Shown here piece after piece: positions 14,886-44,000 of a stretch of DNA of 64,000 nucleotides. The notes below the pieces were generated by a model. It saw nothing but the letters and a program-made list of their open reading frames with translations. It did no database searches and was not told the DNA's origin. Source of the stretch: Antedon mediterranea (Eukaryota; Animalia; Echinodermata); contig NC_092678.1 of assembly GCF_964355755.1 (NCBI RefSeq), positions 8,138,422 through 8,202,421 on the forward strand. Direction: 5' to 3'. The first letter of the stretch is position 1, and each line of letters opens with the position of its first letter. The position numbers and the translations under genes were made by a program.

Positions 14886-16879
14886 GCCTAATAATGCCAT
14901 ATTTAGAAACATAATTCATTGATTTCTGATATTCTGTACTTGTGTATGCATTACTAAAATAGTAGTTATTTTATTTCATTTATAATGTATGTATAAACAT
15001 TTATTCAGTTTTTTTTTTGTTTACATTTTTACATTTAAAAATTATAAAAATACCTATCTACCTTTCTGTTATTGTTACTATTATAATATTTTTTGAGGCA
15101 GATTGATTTCAATAAAAAAAATGTAAAACAATTAATTTGACTTATACTGTACTATGTTAGTTCAGGAGATGAAGTGTGTGTGGGCAGAATCTGGTGTATT
15201 TTTGTCACTTTAAGACCTAAATTAGATGTTTTCTGAAGAAAAGAAGTAAGCGGATAGGCTTTCAAACAACTCCAAGAAGATTCACACAAAAATAATTACT
15301 TCCCAATAAAATAGTATGTAACAGTGTATATACAACGAATTTAGGTTCAACGATTTGCCCCAAATAGGGGTGTTTTCCGATCGTGGTATACACTGTCTAA
15401 TGGATGTCCATCTTGAAAAATACCCGCCACAAAAATACGAGGAGGCTTCGCATTTTCCTATCTCCTCCTACGATAATTGTTTTTAATAGCTGAAAACTGG
15501 TTGAACAGCTAGAGTACAGCATCATAATGTTGAAGACAGGCCGATTTTCTTAAAAAAATACTATTTTGATAGATTTAATATACGATTATACAAATGTATT
15601 GATTTGCGATGAATGGAACATTCCAATCTCTGTTTCACAAGTGTCTATTCCCTCAGGCGTCGTAAAGGCAAGTACAGCACTGTATACTCGAAATTCGATC
15701 CATTTTTGTTTTCAATCTGTGCTGCAGAGGTTGGATATAATTTTTTTTTAAACGGATAATGAGCTAGCGTTTTCACTCGCCCTATATTATGTACAAATCT
15801 TTATTATTGCAGTTAAACCACCCACATCATCACCTTTCCCTCACTGGCATGAGTAGCGTTGTAAAACCAGTAGAGAATAGGCCTACGGTACATCACATGC
15901 CCTAAACGCAGAACAACTTTGGTGGGTAGGGTAGGAACCAACTTAAGTATGAATTGGCTCTAAGAAACAATTGAAAACCATTAGGCCTACTAATTAAGTT
16001 GAGTTAGATAATTTAATATTTATTGACGATTAAATCGAATTTATGATTTTCCCCGAATAGAGGTGGTTTTCACAAATTGTTTTACATTATATTATAAACA
16101 TATACACGTCGTAGTGATGTATCGTTACATGTGCTGTACTATTTCAATCGACTAGGACGGTGATAGTTTCAACAAAGTATTACATCGCAATGTTTTACTG
16201 TGTTTAGTGGTATATTATTTGTAAAACATGAAAGCAATTAATATTTCGTTACTAAATGGATAAAGAATATATTTTAACATTGTTCCTCTTTGCACCCATC
16301 CTCTTCCCCATCCCTCAACCCTAATGTTACATACAAAACACAAATTAAGTTTGTTTAAATTTGACTTAAACAATAGGTCTTATTTTGTGACAAGTTTATC
16401 TTTCGGAAGTAATAGAGTGCTAATTTTAGTTGAGTACATAAATCACAGTGTCTATTTATTCGTTCCTGTACACGACATGTATTATTGTCCTGCGGTACGT
16501 ACATTTGAAATCGCCAGTTTTTTAACGCTGAAATTATTATGTATTCGAGAACCATCTGTGGGCACGACCTAGTGGATAGAATTTTGCTTAAAAACATATA
16601 CAAAAAACATCGATAAAAAATACTTTTCGAATTTAAAAACATTTGAAACTTCTTTTATATGTTCAATATAGGTTGCTCTATTCACAGAAACAAAATTTCA
16701 TTCATGAACGTTTTTTGTTGGTTGTTCTTTTCAAAATCTTTATTAGGTTTAAAAAATGCTTTGGAATTGTATGGTCTTTCATAAGTGTACATTTTGTAAA
16801 AACGTAAATTTAAAAAATCAGTGATATGGCTCGATAGTTATTTTTTTTTTTGCAATATGGATGGAGCAACCTATATGGA

Positions 16880-19636
16880 ACATTTATATGGAACAAAATG
16901 CTTTAACATAGGAAAACGGCCTCATATTACAGTGGTTTATTTATTATATATAATGCATTGTGTTCCATATAACCAAAATGATACCCCAGGAACACAATGC
17001 TATAACATAGCAAAACGGCCTCATTGCTCTTTATTGTTATATAGTGGTTTAAACATTATATATAATGCATTGTGTTTCATATACCCAAAATGATACCCCA
17101 GGAACACAATGCTTTAACATAGAAAAACGGCCTCATATTACAGTGGTTTATTCATTATATATAATGCATTGTGTTCCATTAACCAAAATGATACCCCAGG
17201 AACACAATGCTATAATATAGGAAAACGGCCTCATTGCTTATTACAGTGGTTTATTCATCAAATATAATGCATTGTGTTCCATATACCCAAAATGATACCC
17301 CAGGAACACAATGCTTTAACATAGGAAAACGGCCTCATATTACAGTGGTTAATTCATTATCTATACTGCATTGTGTTCCATATACCCAAAATGATACCCC
17401 AGGAACACAATGCTTTAACATAGGAAAACTACCTCATTGCTTATTACAGTGGTTTATTTATCATATATAATGCATTGTGTTCCATATACCCAAAATGATA
17501 CCCCAGGAACACAATGCTTTAACATAGGAAAACGGCCTCATTGCTTATTACAGTGGTTTATTCATCATATATAATGCATTGTGTTCCATATACCCAACAT
17601 AATACCCCAGGAACACAATACTTTAACATAGGAAAACGGCCTCATATTACAGTGGTTTATTCATTATATAATGCATTGTGTTTCATATACCCAAAATGAT
17701 ACCCCAGGAACACAATGCTTTAACATAGAAAAACGGCCTCATATTACAGTGGTTTATTCATTATATATAATGCATTGTGTTCCATTAACCAAAATGATAC
17801 CCCAGGAACACAATGCTATAATATAGGAAAACGGCCTCATTGCTTATTACAGTGGTTTATTCATCAAATATAATGCATTGTGTTCCATATACCCAAAATG
17901 ATACCCCAGGAACACAATGCTTTAACATAGGAAAACGGCCTCATTGCTACAGTGGTTTATTCATTATATTATATAATGCATTGTGTTCCATATACCCAAA
18001 ATGATACCCCAGGAACACAATGCTTTAACATAGGAAAACGGCCTCATATTACAGTGGTTTATTCATTATATAATGCATTGTGTTCCATATACCCAAAATG
18101 ATACCCCAGGAACACAATGCTTTAACATAGGAAAACGGCCTCATATTACAGTGGTTTATTCATTATATAATGCATTGTGTTCCATATACCCAAAATGATA
18201 CCCCAGGAACACAATGCTTTAACATAGGAAAACGGCCTCATTGCTTATTACAGTGGTTTATTCATCATATATAATGCATTGTGTTCCATATACCCAACAT
18301 AATACCCCAGGAACACAATGCTTTAACATAGGAAAACGGCCTCATTGCTTATTACAGTGGTTAATTCATTATCTATACTGCATTGTGTTCCATATACCCA
18401 AAATGATACCCCAGGAACACAATGCTTTAACATAGGAAAACTACCTCATTGCTTATTACAGTGGTTTATTTATCATATATAATGCATTGTGTTCCATATA
18501 CCCAAAATGATACCCCAGGAACACAATGCTTTAACATAGGAAAACGGCCTCATTGCTTATTACAGTGGTTTATTCATCATATATAATGCATTGTGTTCCA
18601 TATACCCAACATAATACCCCAGGAACACAATACTTTAACATAGGAAAACGGCCTCATATTACAGTGGTTTATTCATTATATAATGCATTGTGTTCCATAT
18701 ACCCAAAATGATACCCCAGGAACACAATGCTTTAACATAGGAAAACGGCCTCATATTACAGTGGTTTATTCATTATTGTATAAATGCATTGTGTTCCATA
18801 TACCCAAAATGATACCCCAGGAACACAATGCTATAATATAGGAAAACGGCCTCATTGCTTATTACAGTGGTTTATTCATCAAATATAATGCATTGTGTTC
18901 CATATACCCAAAATGATACCCCAGGAACACAATGCTTTAACATAGGAAAACGGCCTCATATTACAGTGGTTAATTCATTATCTATACTGCATTGTGTTCC
19001 ATATACCCAAAATGATACCCCAGGAACACAATGCTTTAACATAGGAAAACTACCTCATTGCTTATTACAGTGGTTTATTTATCATATATAATGCATTGTG
19101 TTCCATATACCCAAAATGATACCCCAGGAACACAATGCTTTAACATAGGAAAACGGCCTCATTGCTTATTACAGTGGTTTATTTATCATATATAATGCAT
19201 TGTGTTCCATATACCCAAAATGATACCCCAGGAACACAATGCTTTAACATAGGAAAACGGCCCCATTGCTTATTACAGTGGTTTATTTATCATATATAAT
19301 GCATTGTGTTCCATATACCCAAAATGATACCCCAGGAACACAATGCTTTAACATAGGAAAACGGCCTCATTGCTTATTACAGTGGTTTATTCATTATATA
19401 TAATGCATTGTGTTCCATATACCCAAAATGATACCACATGAACACAATGCTTTAACATAGGAAAACGGCCTCATTGCTTATTACAGTGGTTTATTCATTA
19501 TATATAATGCATTGTGTTCCATATACCCAAAATGATACCACAGGAACACAATGCTTTAACATAGGAAAACGGCCTCATTGCTTATTACAGTGGGTTATTC
19601 ATTATATATAATGCATTGTGTTCCATATACCCAAAA
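16880..19636 (+). repeat. Same satellite in the opposite orientation, about 27 copies
   Basis: Same unit; variant blocks recur near 17260-17460, 18360-18480 and 18880-19080. Confidence 0.95.
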
Positions 19637-22040
19637 TTATGGTATATTTGGCTGCAAGTAACAAATATTCAGATACAAGTACTGTACATACACAAAATAA
19701 AAAATCTTTTATTAATTAGAAAAATATAATTACACAAAAAATACGGGATATTGAATGATAAAGACAATTACCATCCCATCGGCTTTTTACTGCAACGCAG
19801 GATTTACTTATTTTGAAATCTGTAGTGTCAGAGCGAAAGAAATGAAATTTTAAATCCGTTATTCTCTAAATAGAGAGTAGAGAATGATCGATCGTCGAAA
19901 TGACGCTCTCCCTCAATATCCAATCACATCTTCCTTTAAAACTCCCTAAGTTGTTAATAATCAATGTACATGAACATGCTCCTGTCTTCATTTTGGGGGT
20001 CCGAACATATCTGGAACTCGAGGAGTTACAGTACAGTATACTGCTACTAGTGTACTGTAGGCTAGTCATTTTGTGTGCGAGAAAAACGTCTGTAAAATCA
20101 TCAATTTAAAAATGTATTTGTTACTTTTTATGTGATTCTTTTTCATGAAAGTGCCAATTCTAAGGTGTGGTATTCAGAATAAATGTTGGGAGTTAAAATA
20201 CAAGGCAGGTGAGGTGCGAAAGATAAATATTTGTAATCTTAGGTGTTGGGTCTTAGCTTTCGTGATCTTAGGTCTTAGGGGGTCTGAGCTTTCGTGGTCT
20301 GAGCTTTCGTGACACCCGTGTGACGTGTGTGTGTGTTAGGTATGACCAAAGATAGTTACACTATAGTGTAACTATCTTTGGTATGACACAATCCGAGTAA
20401 TAAGTCAGCAAAATTAAACAATAAACATTACACAAAAATACATTTTTATTCTCGTGGGTCAAATCTTCCCATCTCATGTGTTCATATACGCGCATTTTTA
20501 AAGTTCCTTTGAGTACATGCATATTGTTTGATAATAAAATAGCAGAATTAAAAAAATACAGTACACAAATTATACACATTCTTTATTCTTGTGGGTCTAA
20601 GCTTTCTTTGGGCTATGTCCAATGAATTACTACTTAGTTTAATGTCTTGCCGTACTTGCCTAGCTGTCGATTAGCCTCGACTCGACACATTTTGTGTGAA
20701 GAGAAGAGTGCGCGAAGGCAATCACGTGAATTGACTTATAATCCTAGGCCTACTGTATGTAGAAAGTATCGTATCGCAGTTGTAATCACTTCTTGTTGCT
20801 ATACGCTTGGGTGCACACGGAACAACAAATTTAACTGATGAATTATTCATGTTTATTTTGTGACGTTTCATGAAGGGGTCCCCAACTTTATGTACGAAAA
20901 AAAAAATCGCTCCCGGGCCGATGACAGTTCGTCCCAATAGCTTACCGTGAACTAACGGAACTTTATTTTATATCTTTTTATTGTCAAAATCAAAAATTAT
21001 ACTGTATTCAAATTAATAGGCCTACTGTAGAACGAACGATAGGCATCACATTCTGAAGATTTTGCTCGATCGTTAACCCGTTATAATAGTATATAATTCT
21101 CTTAGATTTGTTTGTGTAGTGTCAATTCTATATTTAAATGGTCAGTATACAACCGGGTAACCTGTTTCTTCAATTTTTAAAAATGTATATTTTCTTTTGT
21201 TAATGGAGACTCATGGCAGGGATATGCAAACATTTAGAAGCGGGACGTCGACAATCTGTTGAAAATCGGGAGACTGTTGAATAGTCGTCTCATCCACAAG
21301 CCTGTGAGATAGAAAGTTGGGGGTTAGAGTGGTTAAGCCCGATAAAAAATCACCATCCTTAATAAAGACATGTGTAGAGAGTAATTCTTTTTTTTTGTAT
21401 TCACCACGAGCAATGCTTCAGAAGTCAGTTTTTTTACTTTGATGATGAGGACAATTGTGGTTGGCGGATCGAACTGGAACTTCATTAAACATGTCTTTTG
21501 ACAGTGTCGGTAAACGTAATACCGATATAAATAAACACCCGTTTTAATATCGTCACTAATCACATTGCAACCGTAACAAAATCGACAATTTTGGAGCGAA
21601 TATTTTTTATTTCAATCTTTGTTTTGAATGGCTTTTGTCTTTGTTAACGTTGACATAATGGCATAATTAAATGTTATTCTGAATTATGGAAGCCGTGAAA
21701 CAGATGATATGTCGCAGGAAACGATTGATTATAACCAAAATTTGCAGAACGCTGATTCCTATCGTTCGTTCTTTTTAGCTTTTTGTCAAATCATAATTTG
21801 AATATGTTCTGTCAAATTTGGCCTGGAAATATTTTAAGAGCTGGAATTAGTTTCCAGATCCACGCAAAGTGCGCATTAAAAACAAACTTGCGTGTCCTCA
21901 CAAGTGGGAACCGACGTGTTCAACACCGTTTATGCCTTACGTTCATCGTAATGATTCTCTCGTGAGGGGATGCAAAATAGAGTATTTTCTTATGTTGCGC
22001 GTCAATACGATACGTTGCGGCAGGATGTTTTTGTTAGTTA

Positions 22041-23909: not shown

Positions 23910-26900
23910 ATGAGATTTTATAGTTTTAACTTGTTCTTCGTCTTAATATCAACTGTAGGTAAGTTTGACGTATTATTTATGCTCGTTTAAGCTTAAGTAA
24001 TTGCTGTGTAGAAGGAATCAAAATATAGCATTAATTCCAGGCAAAACATGGATAAGAATAGAGTTCAGTGACAACTATGACTATTTATTAACTGGAAAGT
24101 GGAAATAAGTTATTTTCCAACACTGCCCATCGTAAATATTTTCAGGCTGTGGGCTTACCATTGATGGAGCTAAATCGACCATGGTAGACCAGCAACTACC
24201 TTCTACAATCTAATAAATTCGCATTTTATAAACATTAGGGATATTTCCGATCAAAATCAAATGACTGTTAAATACGCAATAGTACTACTGTTTCTAGAAA
24301 TCCAACTTGTGTCTTATAATTTAATGTAAATTAATTGTTTTATATAAAAGGCTAATGATGTTTAAATGTCTTTTCTGTCCAAAAGCTGCAAGTTATTGCT
24401 TCAAGAGCTACGCAGAGAAGAGTGGTGGTAACTCGCGATGTAAACAGCGATTAACAGGTCTAGGTAGTGAAACAAGCGAAAAGGATTGTTGCCAGCATTC
24501 TAGTGCCGCCGGATTTTCCAAACATCGGAAGGGTTCACGTTGCACGCCATGTAATAGGCCTAGCCCAACAGAGATAAGTTCAGGTTAGGTCATATGTTTT
24601 ATATTTATTAACTGCAAATAAACGTTTGTTTTAATATGATTAAAGGCATCACTACTGTGTATTCAATAGTATACAAATAATGAATGCTTATGAGTGTAAT
24701 GGTACAAATAATGGCATGAGGTGAATGATGAACCTTTACACATATATACATAGCCTATATCTCTCCAAAAATGTACTTTCATTGCGAAACCAGTCATAAC
24801 ATTCAATCTTCGCGGCGAAAGTACAAAATAGGTGGCGTACACGAAAAAAGTAGTATTAAACGATAGTTTAATAGTGCGTATTATATAACACCTATATAAA
24901 TTCCTGTCATTTGATTGGACGAATGTGGGTCACATGGCGTGCAATAGTACGCACTATTCAACGATCGTTAAATAGTACTTTTTGAAACATTTTTGTGTAC
25001 GAAAAAAAACGTCTAGATGTTATATAAAACAAATAATGAATGTTTTGTATTCGTGTAATGGTACAAATAATGGCACTTGGTGAATGATGAAAGGTTATAT
25101 CAACTCGGCTTTGCCTCGTTGATATAACCTTTCATCATTCACCTCGTGCCATTATTTGTACCATTGCACTCATAAACATTCATTATTTGTATACTATTGC
25201 ACGCCATGTGACCCACAATCGAATGACAGGAATTTATTTAGGTGTTATGTAATCTATCGATCGATACTGTATTGGACAATCAGAATTATTTTTATTCAAA
25301 ACTAAGACATAACAAATAGTACTATTACAATAATGACCAAAACGGAGTGTTTTTGGAAAATTGATAACCAATTAGGCCTAATCTGAACTTGGTGAGAAAC
25401 TTTCACTATCTAATAGTACAAAACCAACATGCTAAACTACACTGTATGACTGGCTGCGTGTTTGTTCGCATCGAAAAGGTTTCGAAGACTTTGAAGATAT
25501 CTTTTTATTTAAGAAGACCTTCTATTCACCACATTTGTTTCCTCAATAACTGTCTCTATTTTGTTTCTTTATTTTAGTTTGGACAGATTGGAGTGACTGG
25601 CGCCCGTGTAGTGTGACTTGTGGTAACGGAACTCAGCTTAGGTACCAAACGTGCCAATCGCATGCCTGTTCCGGAAATCCTGTTGATATTCGACCTTGCA
25701 ATGATCAAGACTGTCCAGGTAAATAAGTATTTCAAAAAGTTACAAGGCACAAGTTGAAAAGTCAATCTGAATTGTTGCTCCTGAGTTACCTTGCCGCGCC
25801 TAGAAATAAAAATCCAAGACAAAGCAAACGAAACAAAAAAAATTTGAATAGGACAAGCTCAGCTGTTTTTTACATCTTGTTCAGAAGATGTTGGTAGGGC
25901 GTGTAGGGGCGTGGTTGAAATGATTGCATGTTTGTCGTTTATCGCTGAATTCAAGAATTGATCCATTTTAATTAATCTATGTTTTTTGTTTGTCAGTGGC
26001 CGTAGATGGTGGATGGACACGTTGGAAAAGATGGAGCTCTTGCTCGGTGTCATGCGGGAAAGGTTATCAGTATCGTGTACGAACTTGTTCAAATCCACCG
26101 CCATTGTACGGGGGCCGTCAGTGTGTAGGCAAAGATAGTATCGTAAGATCATGTACAGTCCGAAAATCGTGTGCTGGTACGTTTCAATGAGTTTTGTTAA
26201 TGACAATTAGAGAATTAGTACACTATACAGGCAATATTACAGTATTTAGACACACTGTCAATAAATTAGATTCCCCTACTGTCTACAGGATGATACTTCC
26301 AACAGTCAAGGGAGTTATTTTTGTAGTGAGAAAACATCCACACAGCAGACAGCATATGACCCCATAACCCTGGAATTGGTAGTCATTTACACATAAGACA
26401 GGTTATACTGGACAATTCTGCTCTAACAAAATATATAAATAATTAGTCAATAGATCAAGCCAGAAAGTAAAAATAAACAAATCATGTTCCTTATATTGTT
26501 TCTGTTTGATACTACAGTTCATGGAGGTTGGAGCCTATGGAGCAGTTACTCGCAGTGTGATAAAACATGCGGTAACGACGGTATGAAAGTACGAACTCGT
26601 AGCTGTACCAATCCAGCTCCAGCGAATGGCGGTGATGACTGTCGTGGACTTGCTCTTGATAAATCTCCATGCACTGATCTTAAAGCATGCCCAGGTATTC
26701 AAGAGTATTACCTGTGTTCACACGCACTGAAGTTAATCGTGCATATAAACCACTTTAGCTGATCCGATCATATCATATCATCCGAGCATGGAGGTATTAT
26801 ACCTCCATGATTTGAGTTACACCCGACGCTGTTCGTGTGCTGCTCCGTAATTCTCTTCGTTTCATTAACTCTTACTTCCAATAACTCCGATAGGTTTTAG

Positions 26901-28784
26901 ATACATAAAATGTAACTTTTCCGATAGAGTTCATAATAAATGTAACGTTAGACAACTGATAGGATTTATAATGGAAGTATATCAGATTTAACCAGTGCGT
27001 TTGAACACAAAACAACTAAATAACATGCATTATTGTCTGTAGGATTTATCTCCGATCGAGAAAGGCATATTGATACAAGTGAGGTCATAGAAAAAGACAA
27101 TACTGACTGCCTGCTGCCCGATGTTTTTGACTTTCTGTTATCAGTACTATCTCTTTACAATCTAAATTTCATACCATTTTCATCTTACAGTTGATGGTTC
27201 CTGGTCTACTTGGTCGGCATGGTCTGGGTGTAGTGCAACGTGTGATACTGGCATTCGGATCAGGACAAGACTATGCAATTCTCCTCGTCCACAACATGGT
27301 GGTAAAGATTGTCCTTCGGAAAGCAGACAAACAAGAAACTGTACAGCGCATGTCAGGTGTCCAAGTAAGTCACAATTTGCAAAAACTAGTGGGATTCAAT
27401 ACCCTCCAAGACAGAGTAAAAACGCTTTGAATTTAAGTAGTTTGCCATTGATTCTTTCCTGAGTGGATTTCCACTAAATAGCCCAACTCTCCGCGTTTTG
27501 TGTAAATGGTCAAATAAAATAGATTAGGTTAGGCCTATATATATTTTTTCCGCTTACCGCGTCACCGCTCGTCTGTGTAAACTGGCCTATATGCGTATTA
27601 CTGTATCATTAAAATATATAGTAGAATTTTAGAACTAGGCCCTATCTGTGTTTTAAATTTCCAGTTGACGGAGGTCTGACAGAATGGTCATCGTGGAGCA
27701 ACTGTGGCGCTGCTCAATGTGGTGCAAAAGGTCATCGTTACCGCCGTCGACACTGCACAAATCCTGCTCCAAGATATGGTGGCAATCCTTGCTCAAATAA
27801 GAATGCAGTCATGAAAGAATCTTGTATCAAAGACTGCACAGGTCAGTGTGCTTTGTTGCTAAAGCTTGGTTCCCGTTAGGACGTACGCAATCAAATTTAC
27901 CAATGAAAAGCGACATTTCGAATAATCCATCGCATTATGATTGGTCAAATTAATCGCGTTGCGCGTATGTCTCTGCGGTAAGTCCTAGTGGGAGCCAAGC
28001 TTAACATGATTCTTAACTTGCATCAAATCATTAATGTTGCCACTAACAGTACAAATAAGTCCCCTATGTGGTGCAGTACTTTGAGTTTTTACACGGATGT
28101 GGCTTTTCCACGTATGGCACAGTTCCTATGTTTACGATATCTTAATTTGTTTTGTTTATTTTCTACGCAGCAACAAATGTAGCAGCAGTTCCTGTAAAGA
28201 AATGCAGACCTAAGGTTAAACCAACACAGAATGCCCCTGTGTCAGCTTCTTCATCAATTGGTGAATTATCATATCCCTCCTATGAAGATCCGGCGTCTTC
28301 CAGTACTAGTGCTGACGAAGAACCTTCATACATTGATCCCGGTTTCCCGCCAATGACACGCATGTTACAGAAAACAGCACAGCATGAAAAGAATTTACGC
28401 GTAGACCCACCTCTACCGGACGGATTTCTTTCGTATTCAGAATCCAGTAGTGTTTCTATTGATATACAGTTAAGTGACTTAAGTCTTGGGAAAGAGAAAC
28501 CTATCGAGAAAAGCACGAATCTTCAACAGAAGAAACCAACTGATACAGTATCTTTTTCGACTTCTATTTCTGTTTCGAGCGACGCCAGTCTTTTCCAAAA
28601 GAATGATGGAGACGTACATGCAGAGGTAATTACTCCTTCTCCTCCTGTAGATGAAGACCAACCATCGTTTAGTTTTAACGAGGAATTAGAAGACTGTGAA
28701 GAAATTGAAGAGGTTTTAGAAGTATCTTCTGTGTCAGAGTCATCTTCAGCTGATCAGCCGTCATTCAGTTCTAGTAGTAATTAG
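23910..28784 (+). CDS. Properdin-like secreted protein: signal peptide, TB/TSR0 domain, 5 thrombospondin type-1 repeats, Ser/Glu/Pro-rich tail (~569 aa, 8 exons)
   Basis: Exons 23910-23958, 24386-24583, 25578-25718, 25997-26176, 26518-26694, 27191-27364, 27665-27841, 28171-28784; all GT-AG, phase 1. Exon 2 CFKSYAEKSGGNSRCK...SEKDCC...CTPC resembles the properdin N-terminal TB domain. WxxWxxCSxTC and RxRxC TSP1 motifs occur in exons 3-7. Confidence 0.85.
24672..25250. repeat. Rearranged repeat with a long hairpin (possibly a Crypton-like non-autonomous element) in intron 2
   Basis: ~70-bp stem around the loop CTCGGCTTTGCCTCG (25030-25192); 24672-24735 is a further arm copy; 24880-24950 is inverted at 25193-25250. 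Confidence 0.5.
27863..28001. mobile_element. Harbinger-type MITE, diverged
   Basis: AGCTTGGTTCCC...GGGAGCCAAGCT with TAA TSD. Confidence 0.65.
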
Positions 28785-29720
28785 ATGCCCAAACAAACAT
28801 GAATATTTTATTTATGCTAATCGCAACTACTACCGGCAGGGTATGCAAGACGCGCTTGCGTTTGGCTAATATCCTTGCGTTGCGTCAAAGCTTAAGTATT
28901 TTGACCAATCACAATGCGATGGGTCATACGAATGTCGCCTATGATTGGTAAACTCACTTGCATAGTGCCTAGCGTCGTTGCGTTGCGTCCACATTGTAAA
29001 TATTTAGATAGCTACTTTTAGTGATATTCTTTCACAAGTTATCATTATCGAACGTTTCCGTACAACTGTTTCTTCGATTGAAATTTTCTGATAAATTTAA
29101 TAATATACTTATTTATGTAAAATAAAATTAAAAATATTCTAAAATATGTAAAACGACTCAGTTAGATTTTACTCAAACATGTTTATAATCGCACGACATG
29201 CATTATCGCAATAACAATAAGCAATAAGAGGCCAACAACGACTTCCTTCGCTTATGGTACAAAAGACAGTAAAATGCGATGTGAATTAGGTTAAGCATAA
29301 TATTCTACGCATCCATTATTATGAAATGAAGACTATAAAAATGCACACTGAATTATACCTTTATTTATTATGAATATACAATTTACACGGTAAACAGAAC
29401 AGTTTTATTTATTATACTACATGCGAAAAAGATTGTTAAGATCTTGGACTATCTGCAATATATTTTTTCAGGAATGCAACTATTCCGGACCTGGAGACTG
29501 AGACGACCAACGATAATTTACAAAGAAGATACAGGTGGCAAAATGGCAACTATACACACCCTACTAAAATGATATTTTGGAGGTACAATTCTATAAAGAT
29601 TTTTTTCCATTATATCTTCATAGAATCATTCGCATACATACAATGCTTATACTTGCCAATGCTATAAAGATTCTTATGTCTAAAAAATAAACTGCTCTGA
29701 ACAATATACAATTTTTATGA

Positions 29721-32700
29721 TTAGTTAGAGATTCCAAACTCACGTAACCAAGCTAAGTATTTTGATACTTTAGTGTAAACACCAAATTCTTTCGGCAGTC
29801 CACATTGGTCAGGACTTCCCCAACTTACTATTCCCTCTAAATACCAACTTTTCATTTCACCTGTCCCTCGTGAGAAAACCATTGGGCTACCGCTATCCCC
29901 GGTGCAACTGTCAACCCCGCCCTCTTCAAAGCCGGCACAAAACATGTTGCGTGTGACAAAAATGTTAATATTTTCAGGATAAGAATCTCGGTAATTTCGT
30001 TGACATCTCTGAAAAATAAAACAAACATTTTAATATTCTTGTTGATGTATGCCTGAGTTCATGGTTTTACATAGGCCCTAGAGTAGACATCCTACGACAT
30101 GATTAGTCATACAGCGCATGCGCGCGCTGGAAGACCACCGTCCTTTTACCGGTGGTGGAAACGGGGTGTAGGCTCTACACTTTATTTGACTCATTATTTA
30201 CAAACCTAAAGACATTTAATGTTGATACTACTACTAATGTTAATACATACCAGTCTTGAAACTACAGGAATTATAGCTTGCTGAAGAACTGTAGGTAGTC
30301 CTTCACCAGTTCTCCCCCAGCCTGTCAATACCCCTTCCTTACCGGGTCTTAAATTGCGTTTTGTACTCGATATGGACGGCAGACATACGGGTCGAACACG
30401 CGCCGTAAATTCTATCGGTGTCTCAAGTCTCAAGACAGCAATATCGCTGTCTAGTGTAGATGGGTTGTAATTGTGGTGTACAAAAAAGTCTGCAACCTAA
30501 ACACAGAAGAATTACAAGCTAAATCTATTTGTAGAAAAATCATCTTGTAAAAGGACAGTTTCTTCTGGGAATATACTCATCATGCATCTGCTTCGTATAG
30601 CTAGCTCCGCCCATTGCCGCCATTTTTTAAAATTCTAAAAATATCATGCGGATGTGAACTTTTTGCGAACTTTTTATATCGTTGTTGCCTTTATTGAAAC
30701 AAACCTTTGGAAATGAGTGAGTGTCATAAAAAGGTCAGCGAGACTTTGGTGTTCATCGTACAGGTTTGTCTGCAACCAACAAATAAAGCTACCTAGGCCT
30801 AGACTAGGACTACTACTAGTAGTAGTAAAAAAAAATGTTATTTATTCAACAATGGCATTATACAATAATATAATTATAGGTGTGTACATAAATGAAAACA
30901 TAGCAATAAGCCATCATTTGGGGTCTTCTCTAGAAGAAAACAAGTTTCTTGTCTCGAGAAAGACCCCAGTAGTAGTAGTACTAGTAGTAGTAGTGTAGTA
31001 GTAGAGCCGCATAGTAGGTAGTATAGCATGAACACATTTCATTTGTTCATGGTAGTATACTTAGCCTAGCCGTTGTAGTAGACATAGGGCCTACATCGGT
31101 CTTTAGTTCATTGTCTTGAACAGAAAATCGTGTAGGCCTAGGTCTACTTACATTTCTTGACTGAATCCACTCCTCATCTCTTTTGTGATGAGTCCGGTAA
31201 TACTTCCCTACTTCTACTTTAAATAAGTGGGTAAATCTAAAAAAAGAAAAGACAGATTATCAATAAATAATCTTAAATCATTCACATTAACAAAATAGAA
31301 ATTCAGTAGGCCAAAACATTAGTTCAAAACAAAAGGTTGCAAGTACCATAGCACAGTTTGATGAAATAACAGTATAAAGTATGAGAGAATAACATACAGT
31401 TCGAGAGTTTTTGGTAGTCTGATTTCACGAGAATCGGTCGAACCATTTTAGAAATGCTAAGCTCAATCTAGTTTCGTGATTAAGACTCTTACCTGTCTTT
31501 AACACAATGCGCCGCTGTTACAACTAATGTTTCAGTAAGGATTGAAGCGCCACAGATTAACCGTTTACTACCAGTGCCATTTTTGTACTTGTAAATTGCT
31601 ACATTCCAAGGCCACATGCCGCCTATCGTATCGTTTCCACCAACAACATATGCCTGTTTTTCACCACTAGCTTTTCCACAAACTTTGAAAGTAACGGAAA
31701 GGTGGATAGTTAGCGTGTTGTATAAGAATTGCCACGTGGTCAAGTAAAATAAAGTAGTCCCTGTAAAATAAAAATAATATTTTCTTGGTTTGAACACATC
31801 AATGCGTCATTTTGTTGTCATTTACCTACCTGGTTTGCATGTAGGAATGTGCCCTCTCCACTTTCCACCAGAACACGTAAGATGCGAAGATCCGTAGAGT
31901 TGATATAAGTTAGACTTGCAACTGTAGGCTAGCTGCGTCCCATGTGTAAAGTAACCTTCTGTGAGGTAGTTGTTTTGTTCCTGTTCTTGGTCTTCATCGG
32001 CCATAAATTCCTCCTCTATGCCAGACGTCGATATGCTATCACTACTAGAAGCGGAACTTTCGGATGAAGCCAATGATGAGCTTTGTACTATTCGTGTCCG
32101 ATCAAAGCTGCTTAATAACCAAACTGTATTGTTAGTAGATGTTTACAAAATGGAAATGGATTTCAGTTGTTTGCTCAGATCTGGATTCAAATCAGATCTG
32201 AAACACCATTCGTAGATACTAGTCTAATAAAAAAGGATACATTCCAATACCATGAAATTAACTGAAACAAATATGGCAAATACCTTCTAGTCTTTAAAGC
32301 AGGCTGTGAAACTTGACGGACGCTGTATTTTGGAATACCGGGATCGTGGCACGACGTTTCTGTAATGAATGCGAATCAATAATTGTTCATGTACTGTAGC
32401 ATACTTTATTTCTTTAATTCACTATGTTTGGCAGTGAATACATTGTTAACGAATTGAAAGTGAAAATCTCACCTTCAAGACAAACTGGTTGGTCACCACT
32501 CCAACTTCCGGTCGTCAAGCAAACCCTAGTTTCTTCTCCTTTAACCATTGTAAAGGTATTTCCACACGAGAAAGATAGGATGTCTCCGGCGTGAAATGTA
32601 TGTACACTAGCATCAGGAACCCGAACAATATTTGGTCCAACTCCCGGATCAGGGCACGATACGTCTTTAACTGCATAATGTGAAATATGTTATTTTAGAT

Positions 32701-35700
32701 GCTATAAAGTAGTGTTTGTAAAAGTTATTGAAGGATTGATTTCATTGGTCGGCTTGTCTGTCAAGACATTTTTTTTAAAGTAAAATCTGCGATCTGTCAC
32801 ATATCGACTACTGTTGTTCGCTTTGGGGTTCCAAAGGTAATTGCATATTCTCTCGTATCCAACATTTGCGGAACCGTGCTTTTCGAATCATTCTTAACTG
32901 CCATCCTCATATCCGTTCTTCTTTTCCACTCTTAACTTAATGTTTATAGCAGAATTTGTCTTCTACTTGGTTGTCTTGCTTTCAAAGCAGTCACTGGTTC
33001 TTCCTCAACCGTTTAAAAAACCCATATTACCCGTCAAAGTATGTGTACTCGATCAGTTACTATGGGCCATTTTTTTGTTCCTAAACCTGAACTTCAAAAT
33101 TTGTTTTTTATTACAGAGTCACTTTCTTTCTCAATTCTCTCCCCTTTAGTTACAATATATCTTATTTTGAAATTTTGATACTGTATGCATAAAAGACTTT
33201 TAATACATGTATGTACTACTAAAATGAAGGATTATAATAGGCCTACTCTTTGCTAAAATGTAACGACAAATGTCGATACAAGAAGACACCACTGATCTGA
33301 ACCTTGGTTTGAGAGAAACATGACAGGAAATTGTTGACGTTTTTAAAGGGTAAAATGAAAGAGAACGCATAACTTACTGCACTGAGGAGTATTGCCTGAC
33401 CATTCACCGTTGAATTTGCACAATCTTGATTTTACATCTGGCTTAGAAAAAATGTAATTCTCTTCACATGTATAAGATACAACACCTCCAAACGTAAAGT
33501 TGGTTGCATATAGAAAACCATGTTCTGGGATATCAGGTATTCCGCATTCGACAGGGTCTAATAAGGAAAGGCAAGAGAAAAATTTATTATGCATATTATT
33601 CTCTTTAATTTACATATCCGTCTATTTTTAAAGCTTTCTTACTAAATTAATGTTTTCCGTTAATTACCCGTATGGTACGCAAATAATATTGAATTTTGTT
33701 GGATTAAAAAGTTTGTATATGCTGCAGAAAAAAAAGCCTGTAACATTTTTTCTTAATTAATTTATTTTTATACAATTTATTTATTATGCCCAATTCTGGT
33801 GTTCCACGGCCAGTGAATAAAATAACCCCGGTATAATTACTTTAGGAATATACCATAACAAACTATGTATAATATTTTTCTATATTAGATTAAAGTTTAC
33901 AGATAAAAAGGGATATGGCTGGAATATAATATATATAATAAACCTAAATCAATTTTTATCCATTTATCAGTTACGTGTGCTCTAGTTCTTTTAAAATTTT
34001 CTCACGAAAGAACTCTAGTCCCAACGACTTATATAACGTCTGTTTATGACGTGTTCTTAAAGTGTGTATGTTTTTCTTTGATCACGTATAATATTAGAGG
34101 GCATTGACAGTTATTGAATTCCGTTTTGGAAATCTTTGGCAAAACGCCTAAAAAAGCATATATATGTTAATAATGGACATTGTATACCCACCGCATATTG
34201 GACTTGTTTGTGTCCACTGTCTATCGGGTCCGCATAGCCTCTCGCCAGGTCCTCTTAGGGTGTAACCTCTGTTACATGTGTAGGTGGCTCGAGATCCCTC
34301 TAGTTGTACCGCTTCATCGTCGTCTAAGGCAACGCTCCCGTATGTTGGACGTTTTGGCCTGTCACACTTTGCAACTAAAAGTATAGGCCTTATTTTTTTA
34401 TTTCTTACATTTGCACGGGATGGATGTCGACGACATTTTATTGACACGGAAGGTCGATCATAAATAAACTCTCGATAAAAAAAACTTACTATATTATATA
34501 TATACCAAGCTTATTATCTTGACATATTTACAAAACACATTTAGGCCTAAATGGGATCATAATTTTGTGTAATTTAATGTGGAATATATATAATTTGTTT
34601 AATATACAATAAACAAAAGTATTGTAAAAGAGTCAATAATTATATATTAATATATAGGGCCTAGATTTCCCCCCGTTTTTTTTACAAAAAAAAAAAAGAA
34701 AATGTGCAAATGTCAAAGATTTAAGAAAAGAAAATATAAATTGTAATATATATTTTTTACCACAAACGGGAGGAACTCCTGACCAGGTACCATCTTGTTT
34801 ACAATCGATTCTATCCAAGCCGCTTATTTGATACCCGTTCAAACAATCATACAAAATGCTTCTAACAACGGATGTTCCAGGAACTGACGTTACGATTGCT
34901 AGGCCGCCATTTGGTGTCTCTAATGCTTCACATATGGGCTCTACAATATAACAGGACAATAGCCTCAGTCTACTTGAAAGTTAACTCATTTGTTAAAAGT
35001 GAAACTAAGAAATTTTAGGCAAAATTCCCTCAAACTAGTTTCGAAACATATTTTCCAATGATTCATAGAAACAGTCGGGATAATATTGATAATTGATGAG
35101 AACAACATGAGAACATTATGGGATAATTTGTGACGTCTATGAAAGTGACCTACAGTTATATTGTAAAGTGTTATTCTCAGTAAGAGGGTATTTGCCTTTT
35201 ACTCCCAAAACTTCATGTTCTTCTCCATTTCAGTCAATATTAGTAATTTTTGACTCAATTAGTACTCGCGTACTGTAATGTAATTCAGTAATTCAATGAG
35301 GCATACAAAACAAGAAATAACTCAAAACAAGTATCAAGGCTAAAAAGACCACAACACATTAGACCTAATGTAATTCAATAGTTAAAGTGACAAATATCTA
35401 GAAAAGACATGATTATGAGGTCTTACCACATTTAGGAAGATCACCAATCCAGTCTCCATTAAAATCACAAAGAAGTCTGGAAGATCCAATCAATTGATAG
35501 TTCTGGTTACACATGATGGTCACAGAACTTCCACCGATGAATTGTTGCAGTGATTTTTCAAGCCTAGCATTTGGTGGCACAGAAGGATATGGGCAGTACA
35601 CTGTAAGCAAAAAGCGGTCAAGATCATCGTCAATTTCCAGCAATTTAAAGACAATGTTTAATTATCGCCGTTACAATAAATTGCCTTTGTCCACTTACCG

Positions 35701-37876
35701 CTGTCAGGCAGTACAATACAAATGTTTTATATTTATTATCATTAATTATCGTTTTATTGATTGTGTAGTATAATATGAGGAGTTCTGAGTTTTTCCATTT
35801 ACCTGGTTTTCGTCTTTCGCACTTATCACCTTCAAAACGATCTGAACACATGCAGGTTCCGTTACTATTGCACTCTCCATTGTTCTGGCAGTGACAAACT
35901 TTAGACATGAATTAAAATAAATAGTATAACATATTTTATTGTTGGTTAAAACTTGAATTTAGCTAAAACTTGTAATTTGAATCTATGGAACTCATTACAG
36001 TATTATAAACAATGAATAATTAATTATGAAAACAAAAATAAAAACAATGTGACCTTTCTTTCTTTCGTTCTTAAAAAATGAAGACCTACTTACTCATGTC
36101 ACACCACTTTCCATATCGATCGGAAGGACAACTGACACAACTATCAACGTTATTGTCGCAGGTTTGGCAGTATTGATACTGGGCGCATTGAGCGACAAAA
36201 TCTAAATCTTCGTTACATTCTTTGCAATATGGCCGCCAGCGATAAAAATACGTGCACCTGTTTGTTTCAGAAAAAAATATCGTTTGAAATAATATCGTAC
36301 GGTATTATATAATATAATATATAGCCCTATATAATATATAGGTGCAGGTGTTCTATATAATATAGAACACCTGCATTAAAACTGTTGAATATTACGGTGG
36401 CATTCCGCATGGATTTATTTTGTAGAAATCTAGATCTAGATTTGTCAACAATCTTCGAAACATAAATTTGATGTTTTTTAAACGTATGTAGCAGGTACAA
36501 CAGAGAATGATGAGATTCAAAGATAACTCTCCGAGTTGGATCGACATCATCACCTTCATCGATAATGTTGGGCCATTATTTTAATCGGTTCGGCTATTAT
36601 AGTTTAGTCTTATATGATGGGAACATTAGCCCCATAGCAGATGACTTGCGTGCATCTATTTTGTGTGTCTTTCAATCTGTTGATTTCATTGCGTTGCGTG
36701 TTAGTGGGAACTAAGTTTTAAACAACCAAGAGAAACAATATTGTAATCTAAATTATGTATTGTCCCCCAAAAACATGAAAAATTAAGATTAATATTTAAT
36801 AAAATCTGCAGAGCAGATGACTTGCGTGCATCTGTTTTGTGTATCTTTTCAATCAGTTTTGTTTGTATCTGAACATTAACATTAAAATTGTCATTTCTAT
36901 AACATATTTAATATACAAAATCCGATCATTTTGTGAACATTACTATATTTGGAAAAAGTTGGGTTTTTAAGAGTTTCAAAAAAGTTGTCACTGACAGTGA
37001 GCAAGTTGTTTTAGTAAGGTTAGTTTTGTTCATAATTGTAAAGAATTTTAAATAAGATAAATATAAGAAATTGTCTACCTTTCGTAACTCATAGAGAAAG
37101 TTCTTTCCGTTTCTCCGCACGTGCAGTAGTTTCTACCATCGTCGCATCCAGTAGGTATACCAATAGCCTGGATGCATTCCAATAACGCTACTACAACACA
37201 AACGGCAAACAGAGTTGCTGTTGGAAAAAATAATGCCAATACTATTTTTTTTCTCCAAAGAAACTTTAAAAACATCAGGTTTACATCAACATATGCTGAG
37301 TTCACACTAGAACGCAACGTAAAGATAGATGCAACTCAAGGATTAACCAGCGACGGATCAACAGTCAAGTTAAGGCCAACTCAGACAGCGTCGTATGACG
37401 AAAATTAAACAAGTTTCTCGTGACGACCTAAAAACTACGTCCGACGCTAGAGGCCCTATATCAAAACAACTCGTCTCGTCGGGATTCAACTCAGACAGTA
37501 CCGACGAGTCAAACTTGCAGAAGTTATGAGGGCTGTCTGAGTTGGCCTTTACTTGCGTTGCGTCCTAGTGGCAACCAAGTAATGTACAGTGGAAACAATA
37601 ACATGAGATTTTTTAGAAAAATATTAATAGATAGTTTTTCGACATACTCTAATCCAACTTTTAAGTTAGTATAGATAAAAAGTGCGCAGCAAAACTAACA
37701 ACCTGGCTGACAATTTGTTACCGACTTGGTCAAAGTGAATGTATATGTGACATTAAAATAGCATTTTAACAAAAGAATATTTTTTCGGGAGAATGCATCT
37801 GTGAAGATAAAAAAAAATGTGTTTTAAAAGAAGAAATTTAAATAGTTTTAGACATACCTCTAACTGCAAATTTCAT
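29721..37876 (-). CDS. Limulus clotting Factor C-like modular serine protease: signal peptide, Cys-rich domain, EGF, 6 CCP/sushi, trypsin-fold protease (~831 aa, 15 exons)
   Basis: Exons 37876-37858, 37217-37079, 36257-36094, 35898-35803, 35600-35427, 34940-34761, 34374-34192, 33557-33378, 32670-32473, 32359-32284, 32107-31830, 31682-31493, 31236-31152, 30496-30251, 30008-29721; phases are consistent. Exon 3 encodes CTYFYRWRPYCK...CVSCPSDRYGKWC. Catalytic triad TAAHC / DIAVL / GDSGS. Confidence 0.9.
37373..37548. mobile_element. Harbinger-type MITE nested in an older MITE (~37296-37580)
   Basis: TIR AGGCCAACTCAGACAGC; TTA TSD. Confidence 0.7.
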
Positions 37877-41088: not shown

Positions 41089-44000
41089 TTATAGTGAAGG
41101 TGCCGCCCAGTTGAGGAATTTCATGGCGCATTCAAATCCACAGAAACAAGCCTGCAAAAAATAAAAATACAAATTATGAGTTTGACCGATCTTTTCCCTA
41201 ATGGCCAACAAAATAGAGGGCGTTACAGCAATTTATCTTGATTGTTTTATCATAGAGATAACTTAATAGAGGATAAACTGTGTGACAGTCAATGATATTA
41301 TATAGCCGAAGGCTAGATGGCAAACTGCAATGTTATTGCATTTCAAAAAGTGATTCTCCATGGAGAGGGAACTAACAAGATGGCGGCTGCAATCAACCAA
41401 TCAGATATGAAAGTGAGCCAAGTTCTTTGTACAATTATGTGGTATTACAGTTTTATTTCAATAAAGTGTTTGGTACCATTGGAAAGTTTATTTCTATCTC
41501 ATTATTTGAGTGTATATTGCATGTTATTCTGATTACAAACACCTTTGCTATGAGCTTTGAAAAACAGGTAAATTTATCTAAAATGGCTGGCGGTGAGGGG
41601 TACTTCCTTTATTGAATGCCTGGCGGTGAAAGTGTTAATGTATTATATTATTATTTTTTATATTAAATGTTTTGGAACAAATTTATGGCCGCCATCTTGT
41701 TGGTTCCCTCTCCTGTTGGAATCACTTTTCAGTCTGGAGTGCGCCCTCTAGCTTTCGGCTTATTACATCTCTCTGGTGACAGTGGAGTGCAATTATTTGA
41801 AGATAGAGTAAAAATAGAGGGTGCTACAACTATTTTTTAACTTTACAAATTGTCTGATCATAGAGATAACATTGTTATCTCTAATAACATAACTTATTAC
41901 AGAGTAAAGTAGGCCACAGTGGAGTGCAATCATTTGAAGTAAAATAGTGGGGACTACAACAAACTTGATAGTTTGGCCATGAGATAAAGCCTGTCCTTTC
42001 CTGTTGATATTAAATCACTGAGAGTTACACTGAGTCAACAAGATTCAACGATTGACAGGAAAAGGACTAAAAATCAACACAGATATTATTGAAAATTTAA
42101 GCTGACCAATCAAATGCTTTACAAATGATGTCATCATACAATCATCCAATTAACAAATCGATTGGAAAAGGTGGACATTAGGCAATTCTAGGTGATTCTA
42201 TGTTGATATAAAGTTTGCAGTACACTATGTATATTAGTTCTAAAAAGAACTGTTGAGTTTCTCAACGTTTCGATCACTATGCTTTGATCGTCCTCAGGAG
42301 TGAGTCTACACAATATTTGTATTTGCGAAATTAAATAGTATTTGAAAAAACCAAAACGTAACTTACCGCATTAGCAGGGAATGCCCTCAACATGACAGGA
42401 GTAAAACCCTTGTATAATGACATCACACCCTCCTTAGCAACCAATTCTTTAAAAACGTCTCGTAGTCCATTTGGATATTGACCAGCAGGAGCTAAGCATG
42501 AAAAAAAAAATTCACAGGAAAATGAAATACTGTATTGAGAGAATTTAACACAAAATCTCGATATAACAATTAAAAATATAAATCAAACTATTTGGTGCTT
42601 TCACAACAAATCTTAGGCATTAGCCTATATTGAAAACAATGAGCATACACTTTATAGGCATGGCAAAGATGGTGAAAGCGTTAGACAACATATTTTCACC
42701 TTTATTTAACAAACTAGGGCCTTAGAGAGAACCTAAAATAATACGTTTCAGGATTTTTTCCAAGATAATCGAAATAGTTAGGTCTGTGTAAGAAGTATAC
42801 AATAGCAAAGCTTTGTTCCCAACAATATACACAACAGCAATTATGGATGTCTTGTATGCAATATAAGAGCCAATTTAACCTTGATGCAAAATAGTGAGAA
42901 TTCACGGCAGCCAAAAATAAACTTGTAAATAGACAATACAAAATGTCTATTAAAAGCCAAGTCCAAACTATTTAAAAAATATAATTTGACTAAATATGCT
43001 TGCAACTTAAGCACTGAGTTCATGAGCAGGCTAAATACGGTGACAACCACTACTATAGGTTGTACACTTACCTGTTTGTAGTCTAGATTTAAGTGTATCA
43101 GGTGGTATTGCAACTGCCCAATTAAATATACCGGCCATTCCACCAGCAAATAAAACTCGACCAACACTTAGACTAGATGGACTGAAAAATAGTGGAAATA
43201 AAAATAAGTTTAATGAAAATATATAATCACTCATTTTTTGTGACATAACATTTTTTTATTATGTATATTCAGAACCCCAGTACACAAGATAAGATAATAA
43301 GATTTATAGAGCGCACGTATCCACAAAGTGCACAAGGCGCTTGAACAAACAAGATGCTATTTGGGGTGAATCCAGGGAAGGCTAACATAATAATATTTAA
43401 TACAGCACCACCCTTATTAAAGGAGGACACCATTTGGACCTAACAAAGTGTTCCTTTAATGGGGTTGTCTTGTGACCCTGAATAGGGTTGTCCCAAATGA
43501 TAGGTCCTACTGTAAAGCTCAATATATTTGCGCCTTTATTTTCCCTACTTTTGCGATTGAACAACGATCACGAAAAAAGGGCGCGCGAAAATCCCAACAA
43601 TGTTAGTTACAGTCAATCAGGCCAAGGCTTAAAGGTAAATTTTTATGAAATGTATAGTGTACTTGCTTGACGAATCCTTTGTCCATTAAATCATATAAGT
43701 TGTAATGTGTCCATAAATTAATTATTCTACGTGCGTATCAAACGGCAAAAAAACCATCGCCATCCTTTCCATATTTCCATCAGGCCGGCATCGCGTCCAT
43801 TGTTGTGTAGAAACAACAATAATTTGGTAGTCGAGTACATTACTTATGGGGGTGTTCACTATCTAAGAGCCTATTAAATATGTGTCTCATCCACTGTGTA
43901 GCCAAAGCATTTATTTATTTACATCCCTAAATTTACAATCGCATATTCTGTAATTTACTGAGACTATTTAAATGTTGTTTGATGTTCATCGTGGAGGCGA

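What the first reader, a model, noticed from the sequence alone, without database searches (positions are those of the whole stretch)
23910..37876. Factor C-like LPS sensor and properdin-like gene in a tail-to-tail pair: candidate ancestral LPS-triggered complement locus
Seen: two intact secreted-protein genes converge, with stop codons only ~940 bp apart. Known: horseshoe-crab Factor C is an LPS-activated zymogen also reported to act as a C3 convertase, and vertebrate properdin (TB domain + TSP1 repeats) stabilises the alternative-pathway C3 convertase. Inference: linkage of a convertase-like sensor with a convertase stabiliser suggests a co-regulated invertebrate complement-initiation module. 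I am not aware of this pairing being described, but could not search.
Basis: partly seen in the sequence, partly recalled or inferred. Interest (0 to 1): 0.9.

Follow-up and report, generated by a model that had tools for sequence, protein, structure and literature searches.

The report
Feather star Factor C–properdin gene pair
A feather star carries, tail to tail, a gene for a horseshoe-crab-type protease that likely senses bacterial endotoxin and a properdin-family gene that lacks the two loops vertebrate properdin uses to stabilise complement enzymes, so the pair is real and appears kept in a second feather star but is probably not a sensor-plus-stabiliser unit.

Summary
Two intact, spliced genes for secreted proteins converge with stop codons 936 bp apart. 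The window is from the feather star Antedon mediterranea, and RefSeq already names them clotting factor C-like and properdin-like. Both names survive testing. The protease has the Factor C Cys-rich domain with the RWR LPS-binding motif, an Arg-Ser site, an aromatic activation site and a full catalytic triad, but no LCCL or lectin domain and probably no N-terminal Arg. The TSP1 protein has properdin's TB domain and aligns colinearly with human properdin through TSR4. The orthologues in Anneissia japonica share one scaffold and have consecutive accessions, so the adjacency is probably conserved in comatulid crinoids; it could not be tested further out. The stabiliser idea fails. Both crinoid properdins lack the TSR5 thumb loop and all of TSR6, which human properdin needs to hold C3b and Bb together, and Factor C works without Bb. 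Most likely these are an LPS-triggered protease and a surface-binding properdin variant kept as neighbours; co-regulation and ancestry are not shown.

The parts
23910..28784 (+). Properdin-family gene, 8 exons, 563-569 aa: signal peptide, TB domain, TSR1-5, acidic Ser/Pro-rich tail; no TSR6
   Evidence: Models equal RefSeq isoforms X1-X3; 7 of 7 introns spliced in run X1
23910..23958 (+). Exon 1, hydrophobic signal-peptide-like segment
24386..24583 (+). TB-like domain exon (six Cys, properdin N-terminal type)
   Evidence: Pfam PF18487 E 9.4e-5, 23 bits, just under the 25-bit cut-off; only PDB hits are properdin, E 0.003-0.005
25578..25718 (+). TSR1, short form; among the six properdin repeats it matches TSR1 best
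   Evidence: 26.7 bits to properdin TSR1, 7-22 bits to TSR2-6; thrombospondin-1 repeat 1 scores higher (33.1)
25997..27364 (+). TSR2, TSR3 and TSR4 exons (25997-26176, 26518-26694, 27191-27364), all phase 1-1
   Evidence: Pfam TSP_1 E 1.8e-11 to 5.6e-15; colinear with human properdin
27665..27841 (+). Fifth TSP1 repeat, generic type: 4 residues between the first two Cys, no properdin thumb loop
28171..28784 (+). Last exon (acceptors 28171, 28186, 28189): acidic Ser/Pro/Glu-rich tail, pI about 4.3, no Pfam match
   Evidence: 40% identical to the Anneissia tail
28785..29720 (.). 936-bp gap between the stop codons, largely covered by transcript contigs (A side to 29396, B side from 29467)
   Evidence: contigs show neither strand nor transcript ends
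29721..37876 (-). Factor C orthologue, 15 exons, 831 aa: signal peptide, Cys-rich domain, EGF, 6 CCP, trypsin-type protease
   Evidence: Model equals RefSeq isoform X2, P0001; 14 of 14 introns spliced in run X1
36094..36257 (-). Core exon of the Cys-rich domain with Arg59-Trp60-Arg61 (codons 36241-36233)
   Evidence: profile search
35803..35898 (-). EGF-like exon
   Evidence: Pfam EGF_2 E 1.4e-4
32473..35600 (-). CCP1-5, one exon each
   Evidence: Pfam Sushi E 2.5e-9 to 8e-12
31830..32359 (-). Split CCP6 with a long Ser/Glu-rich insert carrying Arg469-Ser470, the candidate heavy/light chain cut
   Evidence: insert has pLDDT under 50 in the model
29721..31682 (-). Protease domain: predicted activation bond Tyr573-Val574, His621, Asp672, Ser775, S1 Asp769

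Best explanation
These are two genuine, transcribed crinoid genes lying tail to tail: a Factor C orthologue that likely binds LPS, activates itself and cuts C3 on its own, and a properdin-family protein that lacks the convertase-gripping loops and so probably acts as a surface-binding protein rather than a stabiliser. Factor C would bind lipid A through RWR in its Cys-rich domain, be cut at Arg469-Ser470 and at Tyr573-Val574, and cleave an Arg-X bond in C3 (motifs shown; activity inferred from horseshoe crab). The properdin variant would bind anionic microbial or host surfaces with its basic TB-TSR arm (net +23, pI about 9), with the acidic tail as a flexible spacer (inferred). The adjacency is most likely one rearrangement inherited by comatulid feather stars as ordinary microsynteny, with at most loose co-expression.
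For: Gene structure and splicing shown. A profile of the Cys-rich domain gives 18 hits among 1.84 billion representatives: the query, one low-complexity repeat protein, and 16 proteins with the domain. Of 15 hits looked up, 8 are named clotting factor C (hemichordate, amphioxus, brachiopod, chiton, centipede, millipede, spider, horseshoe crab) and one clusters with Ixodes factor C. RWR is exact in both crinoids and Ptychodera. RWR, an Arg-Ser site, an aromatic activation site and the active Ser are the sites used to call canonical Factor C in PMC11836539; all four have counterparts here. [quoted passage not shown] Properdin kinship. Loss of the binding site: the TSR5 loop has 4 residues against 9 in human properdin, no TSR6 remnant lies between 27842 and 29720 on the + strand, and Anneissia has the same layout. 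The fifth repeat matches thrombospondin-1 better than properdin, and its best properdin match is TSR2. Only 1 of 7 hydrophobic TB-TSR4 interface residues listed in PMC6736995 is clearly kept, one more is ambiguous.
Against: No activity was measured. The predicted mature N-terminus is Ile, not Arg (cleavage site judged by eye), and a paper title states that the N-terminal Arg is essential for Factor C autoactivation (title only, reference lists). LPS-triggered activation may therefore differ or be lost. LCCL and lectin domains are absent. The canonical horseshoe crab sequence was not among my hits; the Tachypleus hit lacks RWR. Crinoid C3 was not examined. Two complement-type genes being neighbours is uncommon by chance (0.4-1.9%), both are spliced in one run, and transcript contigs nearly fill the gap between them, which all leave room for selected linkage. 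I recall, without a call, a report that amphioxus properdin binds C3 and LPS through TSR1-3; if so, the crinoid protein could still bind C3.
Confidence: 0.6

Rival explanations
1. Selected, co-regulated initiation module: the TSR6-less properdin binds LPS-bearing surfaces and C3 with its N-terminal repeats and brings C3 to activated Factor C, giving factor B-independent opsonisation; the linkage is kept for joint expression.
For: Adjacency in two crinoid genera. Both spliced in one run. Low chance of adjacency. LPS and glycans are suggested properdin ligands, with a sulfate site at TSR3 (PMC10087229). A properdin-like contig is listed with C3 and C2 among differentially expressed complement genes in sea star coelomocytes (PMC4503460). 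Factor C pre-binds C3 in Tachypleus.
Against: Tail-to-tail genes share no promoter; no kB-like site lies near the properdin gene. One run of unrecorded tissue does not show co-regulation. The two species are both comatulids with 55-68% protein identity, a distance at which neighbours are often simply retained (general knowledge). No binding data.
Confidence: 0.2
2. One reading: the properdin-like protein stabilises a C3 convertase as vertebrate properdin does, either Factor C itself or a crinoid C3b-Bb complex downstream of it.
For: True properdin kinship from TB to TSR4. Factor B/C2 and C3 are documented in echinoderms. A fifth TSR is present, is basic (net +5) and is 63% identical between the two crinoids.
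Against: The thumb loop and the whole of TSR6 are missing in both species. Cleaving the thumb or mutating Tyr414 at the base of the TSR6 loop abolishes function in human properdin. Factor C has no vWA/MIDAS domain, which is the contact properdin steadies.
Confidence: 0.06
3. The protease is a Factor C relative that no longer triggers complement through LPS and serves wound clotting or matrix remodelling; the properdin-like protein is a matrix or adhesion protein; the pairing has no immune meaning.
For: No predicted N-terminal Arg; no LCCL or lectin domain; a long branch to the crinoid protease domains (1.71 changes per column); Gly replaced by Ser two residues after the catalytic Ser in Antedon only. 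A 'limulus clotting factor C' annotation appears among adhesion and matrix markers of sea cucumber carotenocytes (orthology unchecked).
Against: The Cys-rich domain is the best-conserved part compared between the two crinoids (79% against 72% for the protease and 66% for EGF), and RWR is exact.
Confidence: 0.14

Closest known systems
Horseshoe crab Factor C (Tachypleus, Limulus, Carcinoscorpius)
   Same: Cys-rich domain with RWR at nearly the same mature position (35-37 against 36-38), EGF, CCP array, split last CCP with an Arg-Ser site, aromatic residue before the activation bond, S1 Asp, catalytic triad.
   Different: Six CCPs, no LCCL or C-type lectin domain, predicted N-terminus Ile rather than Arg, Tyr-Val rather than Phe-Ile activation bond; activity untested.
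Factor C-like proteins of Ptychodera, Branchiostoma, Lingula, Liolophura and a centipede (database annotations)
   Same: Cys-rich domain, CCPs and a protease domain; Ptychodera, Lingula, Liolophura and the centipede protein also lack LCCL and lectin domains; 34-40% identity over the alignment for those four.
   Different: CCP number varies; RWK in most, RWR in Ptychodera; neighbouring genes unknown.
Vertebrate properdin (CFP)
   Same: N-terminal six-Cys TB domain, short TSR1, colinear TSR2-4 (one stretch, residues 20-320, E 2.8e-55), basic charge.
   Different: No TSR5 thumb loop, no TSR6 (so no index finger and no TSR1-TSR6 contact), most TB-TSR4 core residues changed, acidic tail of about 200 residues added.
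Coadhesin, hemicentin and SCO-spondin-like TSP1 arrays of invertebrates
   Same: Tandem TSP1 repeats, 33-46% identity in local alignments.
   Different: None of those held carries the TB domain; Antedon's own coadhesin-like gene is on another chromosome-sized contig.
MASP-1/2/3 catalytic regions
   Same: CCP-CCP-protease fold; top Foldseek matches.
   Different: No CUB-EGF-CUB head; the Cys-rich RWR domain is specific to the Factor C family.

Membership tests
Factor C | N-terminal Cys-rich domain followed by EGF | tested here: met
Factor C | Basic-aromatic-basic LPS motif (RWR) | tested here: met
   Arg59-Trp60-Arg61 in Antedon, same in Anneissia; motif from PMC10672452 and PMC11836539
Factor C | Tandem CCP modules and a trypsin-type protease with intact triad and S1 Asp | tested here: met
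   Six Sushi matches; His621, Asp672, Ser775, Asp769
Factor C | Arg-Ser heavy/light chain site and aromatic residue before the activation bond | tested here: met
   Arg469-Ser470 in the CCP6 insert; Tyr573-Val574 aligned with Phe-Ile. Cleavage itself not tested
Factor C (horseshoe crab form) | LCCL and C-type lectin domains | tested here: not met
   Absent in both crinoids; LCCL found in 5 of the 17 other hits scanned
Factor C (horseshoe crab form) | Mature N-terminal Arg needed for autoactivation | tested here: inconclusive
   Likely cleavage after Ala24 leaves Ile (judged by eye); requirement known from a paper title only
Factor C | LPS-dependent autoactivation and C3 cleavage | not testable with these tools
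   Needs recombinant protein and crinoid C3
Properdin | N-terminal TB domain with six Cys | tested here: met
   Pfam score 23 bits is just under the cut-off of 25
Properdin | Colinear TSR1-4 after TB | tested here: met
Properdin | TSR5 thumb loop (residues 328-336) | tested here: not met
   4 residues between the Cys pair in both crinoids against 9; repeat 5 matches generic TSP1 best
Properdin | TSR6 with index-finger hairpin | tested here: not met
   Replaced by an acidic tail in both species; no WxxW on the + strand from 27842 to 29720
Properdin | Head-to-tail oligomers through TB-TSR4 and TSR1-TSR6 contacts | tested here: inconclusive
   TSR1-TSR6 contact cannot form; 1 of 7 TB-TSR4 core residues clearly kept; no usable structure model
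Properdin | Phylogenetic grouping with vertebrate CFP | not tested
   No vertebrate properdin sequence was held as a protein id; kinship rests on domain and alignment evidence
Ancestral linked complement locus | Adjacency in a second species | tested here: met
   Anneissia: same scaffold length, consecutive accessions; gene coordinates and orientation not seen
Ancestral linked complement locus | Adjacency outside crinoids | not testable with these tools
   No animal genomes searchable; properdin orthologues of Ptychodera or Branchiostoma were not among the 120 of 469 hits listed
Ancestral linked complement locus | Co-induction by LPS in the same cells | not testable with these tools
   One contig-only run of unrecorded tissue holds both spliced transcripts

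The most novel reading that the evidence does not exclude
The pair is a surviving piece of an early deuterostome, factor B-independent complement trigger. Factor C senses LPS and cuts C3, while a pre-vertebrate properdin made only of TB and five TSRs binds the same surface and presents C3. The TSR5 thumb and TSR6 finger that stabilise C3bBb would then be later additions, and properdin's first job would be pattern recognition beside Factor C.
Probability: 0.12. Interest if true: 0.8.

Novelty: new variant of a known kind. Interest (0 to 1): 0.42.

Why it matters
Factor C is usually presented as a horseshoe crab protein (one 2023 review calls it unique to them, PMC10672452), yet intact versions with the LPS motif occur in crinoids, a hemichordate, amphioxus, a brachiopod and a chiton. 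The compact crinoid form allows a direct test of whether LPS-triggered C3 cleavage is an old bilaterian pathway and whether the N-terminal Arg, LCCL and lectin domains are dispensable. A properdin conserved in two crinoids without its convertase-binding half is a natural test of the debated pattern-recognition role of properdin. The linkage itself would matter only if it reaches beyond comatulid crinoids.

Tried and rejected
No whole genome was held, so neighbours, C3 and factor B could not be searched in Antedon or other animals. A hidden TSR6 exon was sought and not found. My first exon models used two acceptors (37295 for gene B exon 2, 28171 for gene A exon 8) that differ from the spliced contigs (37217, 28189); 28171 matches RefSeq isoform X1, 37295 matches neither RefSeq isoform held. 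The AlphaFold model of the properdin-like protein from 2 sequences failed (mean pLDDT 29.5) and was not used. The Factor C model was good for CCPs and protease (mean 72) but under or near 50 over most of residues 16-77, including RWR. The protease tree of 13 sequences resolved only the crinoid pair (1 of 10 inner branches starred) and had no outgroup. The Atlas search with the Factor C N-terminus gave no hit above 0.80. The metagenome scan gave one chance bacterial match. No run is on record as RNA; X1 is treated as RNA only because its contigs are spliced, and depths were not used to rank the genes. kB-like sites are not clearly enriched (7 matches at 4 places, 5 of 100 shuffles reach 7). Five look-ups of earlier findings gave nothing on this locus. 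Literature: 10 searches; none of the listed papers describes this pairing or a crinoid Factor C or properdin. The library omits most subscription journals, and the two key mechanism papers (PMC4162196, PMC6065167) were not held. No supplements were read.
Full report
What is there. The region holds two multi-exon animal genes on opposite strands. Gene A (+, 23910-28784) has 8 exons and gene B (-, 37876-29721) has 15; all introns are GT-AG and the stop codons are 936 bp apart. Single-exon searches returned proteins identical to the window from the feather star Antedon mediterranea, named properdin-like and clotting factor C-like by RefSeq. The spliced models equal these proteins exactly. One public run (X1) has contigs that skip 7 of 7 introns of A and 14 of 14 of B, so both genes are transcribed and spliced in one sample whose tissue is not on record. 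Contigs reach 29396 from the A side and start at 29467 on the B side, so the 3' UTRs may meet; contigs cannot show strand or ends.

Gene B is a Factor C orthologue. Pfam gives EGF, six Sushi modules and a trypsin domain. A two-sequence profile of the Cys-rich N-terminal domain, run over 1.84 billion representatives, gave 18 hits at E up to 0.001: the query, one low-complexity repeat protein, and 16 proteins with the domain. I looked up 15 of the 17 non-self hits. Eight are named clotting factor C (Ptychodera, Branchiostoma, Lingula, Liolophura, Hemiscolopendra, Epanerchodus, Araneus, Tachypleus), one clusters with Ixodes factor C, three are unnamed, two are hypothetical arachnid proteins and one is an amphioxus chimera. 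None of the named hits is from another echinoderm class, which is weak evidence because of clustering and sensitivity. PMC11836539 (passages) marks canonical Factor C by RWR, an Arg-Ser chain cut, a Phe-Ile activation bond and the active Ser. The crinoid protein has Arg59-Trp60-Arg61, Arg469-Ser470 inside a split last CCP, Tyr573-Val574, His621/Asp672/Ser775 and an S1 Asp. RWR is the LPS-binding tripeptide at 36-38 in Tachypleus (PMC10672452, passages); here it would sit at mature 35-37. It lacks LCCL and lectin domains, as do the Ptychodera, Lingula, chiton and centipede proteins. The likely mature N-terminus is Ile, whereas a paper seen only as a title in reference lists (Kobayashi 2014) says the N-terminal Arg is essential for autoactivation. 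The canonical horseshoe crab sequence was not among the hits, so that comparison rests on the papers.

Gene A is properdin-family. Its second exon matches Pfam PF18487 (E 9.4e-5, just below the cut-off) and in the PDB hits only properdin (3 of 3). The whole protein aligns to human properdin in one stretch from TB to the start of TSR5 (E 2.8e-55). The top three Atlas clusters for TB+TSR1 are properdins (0.92, 0.91, 0.88). A TB profile finds only the four crinoid properdin sequences among 164 proteins held, which include the coadhesin-, hemicentin- and spondin-like hits (120 of 469 hits were listed). No tree with vertebrate properdin was built.

It lacks the convertase-binding half. In human properdin a nine-residue thumb in TSR5 and an index-finger hairpin in TSR6 embrace the C3b C-terminus next to the Bb vWA domain; cleavage of the thumb or the Tyr414Asp change abolishes function (PMC6736995 and PMC6713926, passages). 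In both crinoids the thumb position has 4 residues and TSR6 is replaced by an acidic tail. The fifth repeat resembles thrombospondin-1 more than properdin TSR5. Of seven hydrophobic residues at the TB-TSR4 oligomer interface, one is clearly kept. Factor C has no vWA domain and deposits C3b on Gram-negative bacteria without factor B (PMC3351276, passages). The known properdin mechanism therefore has neither the binding surface nor a target in Factor C.

The linkage. The Anneissia japonica orthologues (68% and 55% identical) lie on one 2,465,996-nt scaffold with consecutive accessions XP_033127295 and XP_033127296, just as the Antedon pair runs XP_071960712-716. Adjacency in Anneissia is thus likely, though coordinates were not seen. 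Under random order a neighbour pair among 10-20 complement-type genes has a chance of about 0.4-1.9%, so the pairing is somewhat unusual, but it is one event shared by two comatulids. Nothing could be tested in other classes or phyla. The promoters are at the far ends; one kB-like site lies at 39371, about 1.5 kb upstream of gene B, and none near gene A. The other neighbours seen are a mitochondrial carrier gene and a retrotransposon.

How it most likely works. Shown: both genes are intact, spliced and carry the motifs above. Inferred from horseshoe crab biochemistry: the protease binds lipid A through RWR, is cut at the aromatic activation bond and cleaves C3; echinoderms have C3 and factor B (passages). 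Inferred from structure: the properdin variant cannot stabilise C3bBb in the vertebrate way and more likely binds anionic surfaces with its basic arm (net +23 in Antedon but only +5 in Anneissia); LPS and glycans are suggested, disputed ligands of human properdin (PMC10087229, passages). I put this at 0.6, a selected co-regulated module with properdin as scaffold at 0.2, a non-immune role at 0.14 and the stabiliser model at 0.06.

Novelty. Both genes are already annotated under these names. A properdin-like transcript was reported in sea star coelomocytes (PMC4503460, passages), and I recall, without a call, a functional study of amphioxus properdin. Ten literature searches (listings and abstract starts) showed no paper on this pairing, on crinoid Factor C or on a TSR6-less properdin; the library lacks most subscription journals. 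PMC10381214, PMC10179214, PMC5302069 and PMC10090249 were seen as passages and added only domain descriptions or references. The result is a new variant of two known families in a modestly conserved arrangement, interest about 0.4.

Noticed in passing
Proteins P0137 (Branchiostoma floridae XP_035658799), P0150 (B. lanceolatum XP_066269403), P0151 (B. lanceolatum CAH1248138); not in the window: Signal peptide, Factor C Cys-rich domain (LPS motif reads KWE; Arg at the likely mature N-terminus), EGF, two TSP1 repeats, a transmembrane-like segment and a TIR domain (TIR_2 E 1.6e-7 to 2.6e-7). It looks like a TIR receptor built on a Factor C head, annotated three times in two species. Worth its own follow-up.
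   Followed up: partly
window 28785-29720: Transcript contigs cover nearly the whole gap between the two stop codons (to 29396 and from 29467), with AATAAA signals on the minus strand at 29360-29413; the two 3' UTRs may abut or overlap.
   Followed up: partly
window 28171, 28186, 28189 (+): Three alternative acceptors for the last exon of the properdin-like gene give RefSeq isoforms X1-X3; run X1 uses 28189.
   Followed up: yes
window about 29890 (-), P0001 residue 777: Antedon has Ser two residues after the catalytic Ser where Anneissia and the other Factor C-like proteins listed have Gly.
   Followed up: no
window about 42330-48660 (-): Exons of a mitochondrial carrier gene (Pfam Mito_carr), by recalled similarity a carnitine/acylcarnitine carrier; the next gene upstream of Factor C and a useful synteny control.
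   Followed up: partly
window 5797-9763 (+): LTR-type retrotransposon coding region with zinc knuckle, protease, reverse transcriptase, RNase H and integrase matches, broken over several frames.
   Followed up: partly
window 13458-14886 and 16931-19637: Tandem arrays of a 104-bp unit, 14 and about 25 copies.
   Followed up: no
window about 1013-2770 (-): Repeated Myb/SANT-like (MADF) fragments, typical of a transposon-associated gene.
   Followed up: no
one search hit list: No named sea urchin, sea star or sea cucumber protein carried the Factor C Cys-rich domain among the 15 hits looked up; Factor C may be retained in crinoids and lost or diverged in other echinoderms. Weak evidence.
   Followed up: no
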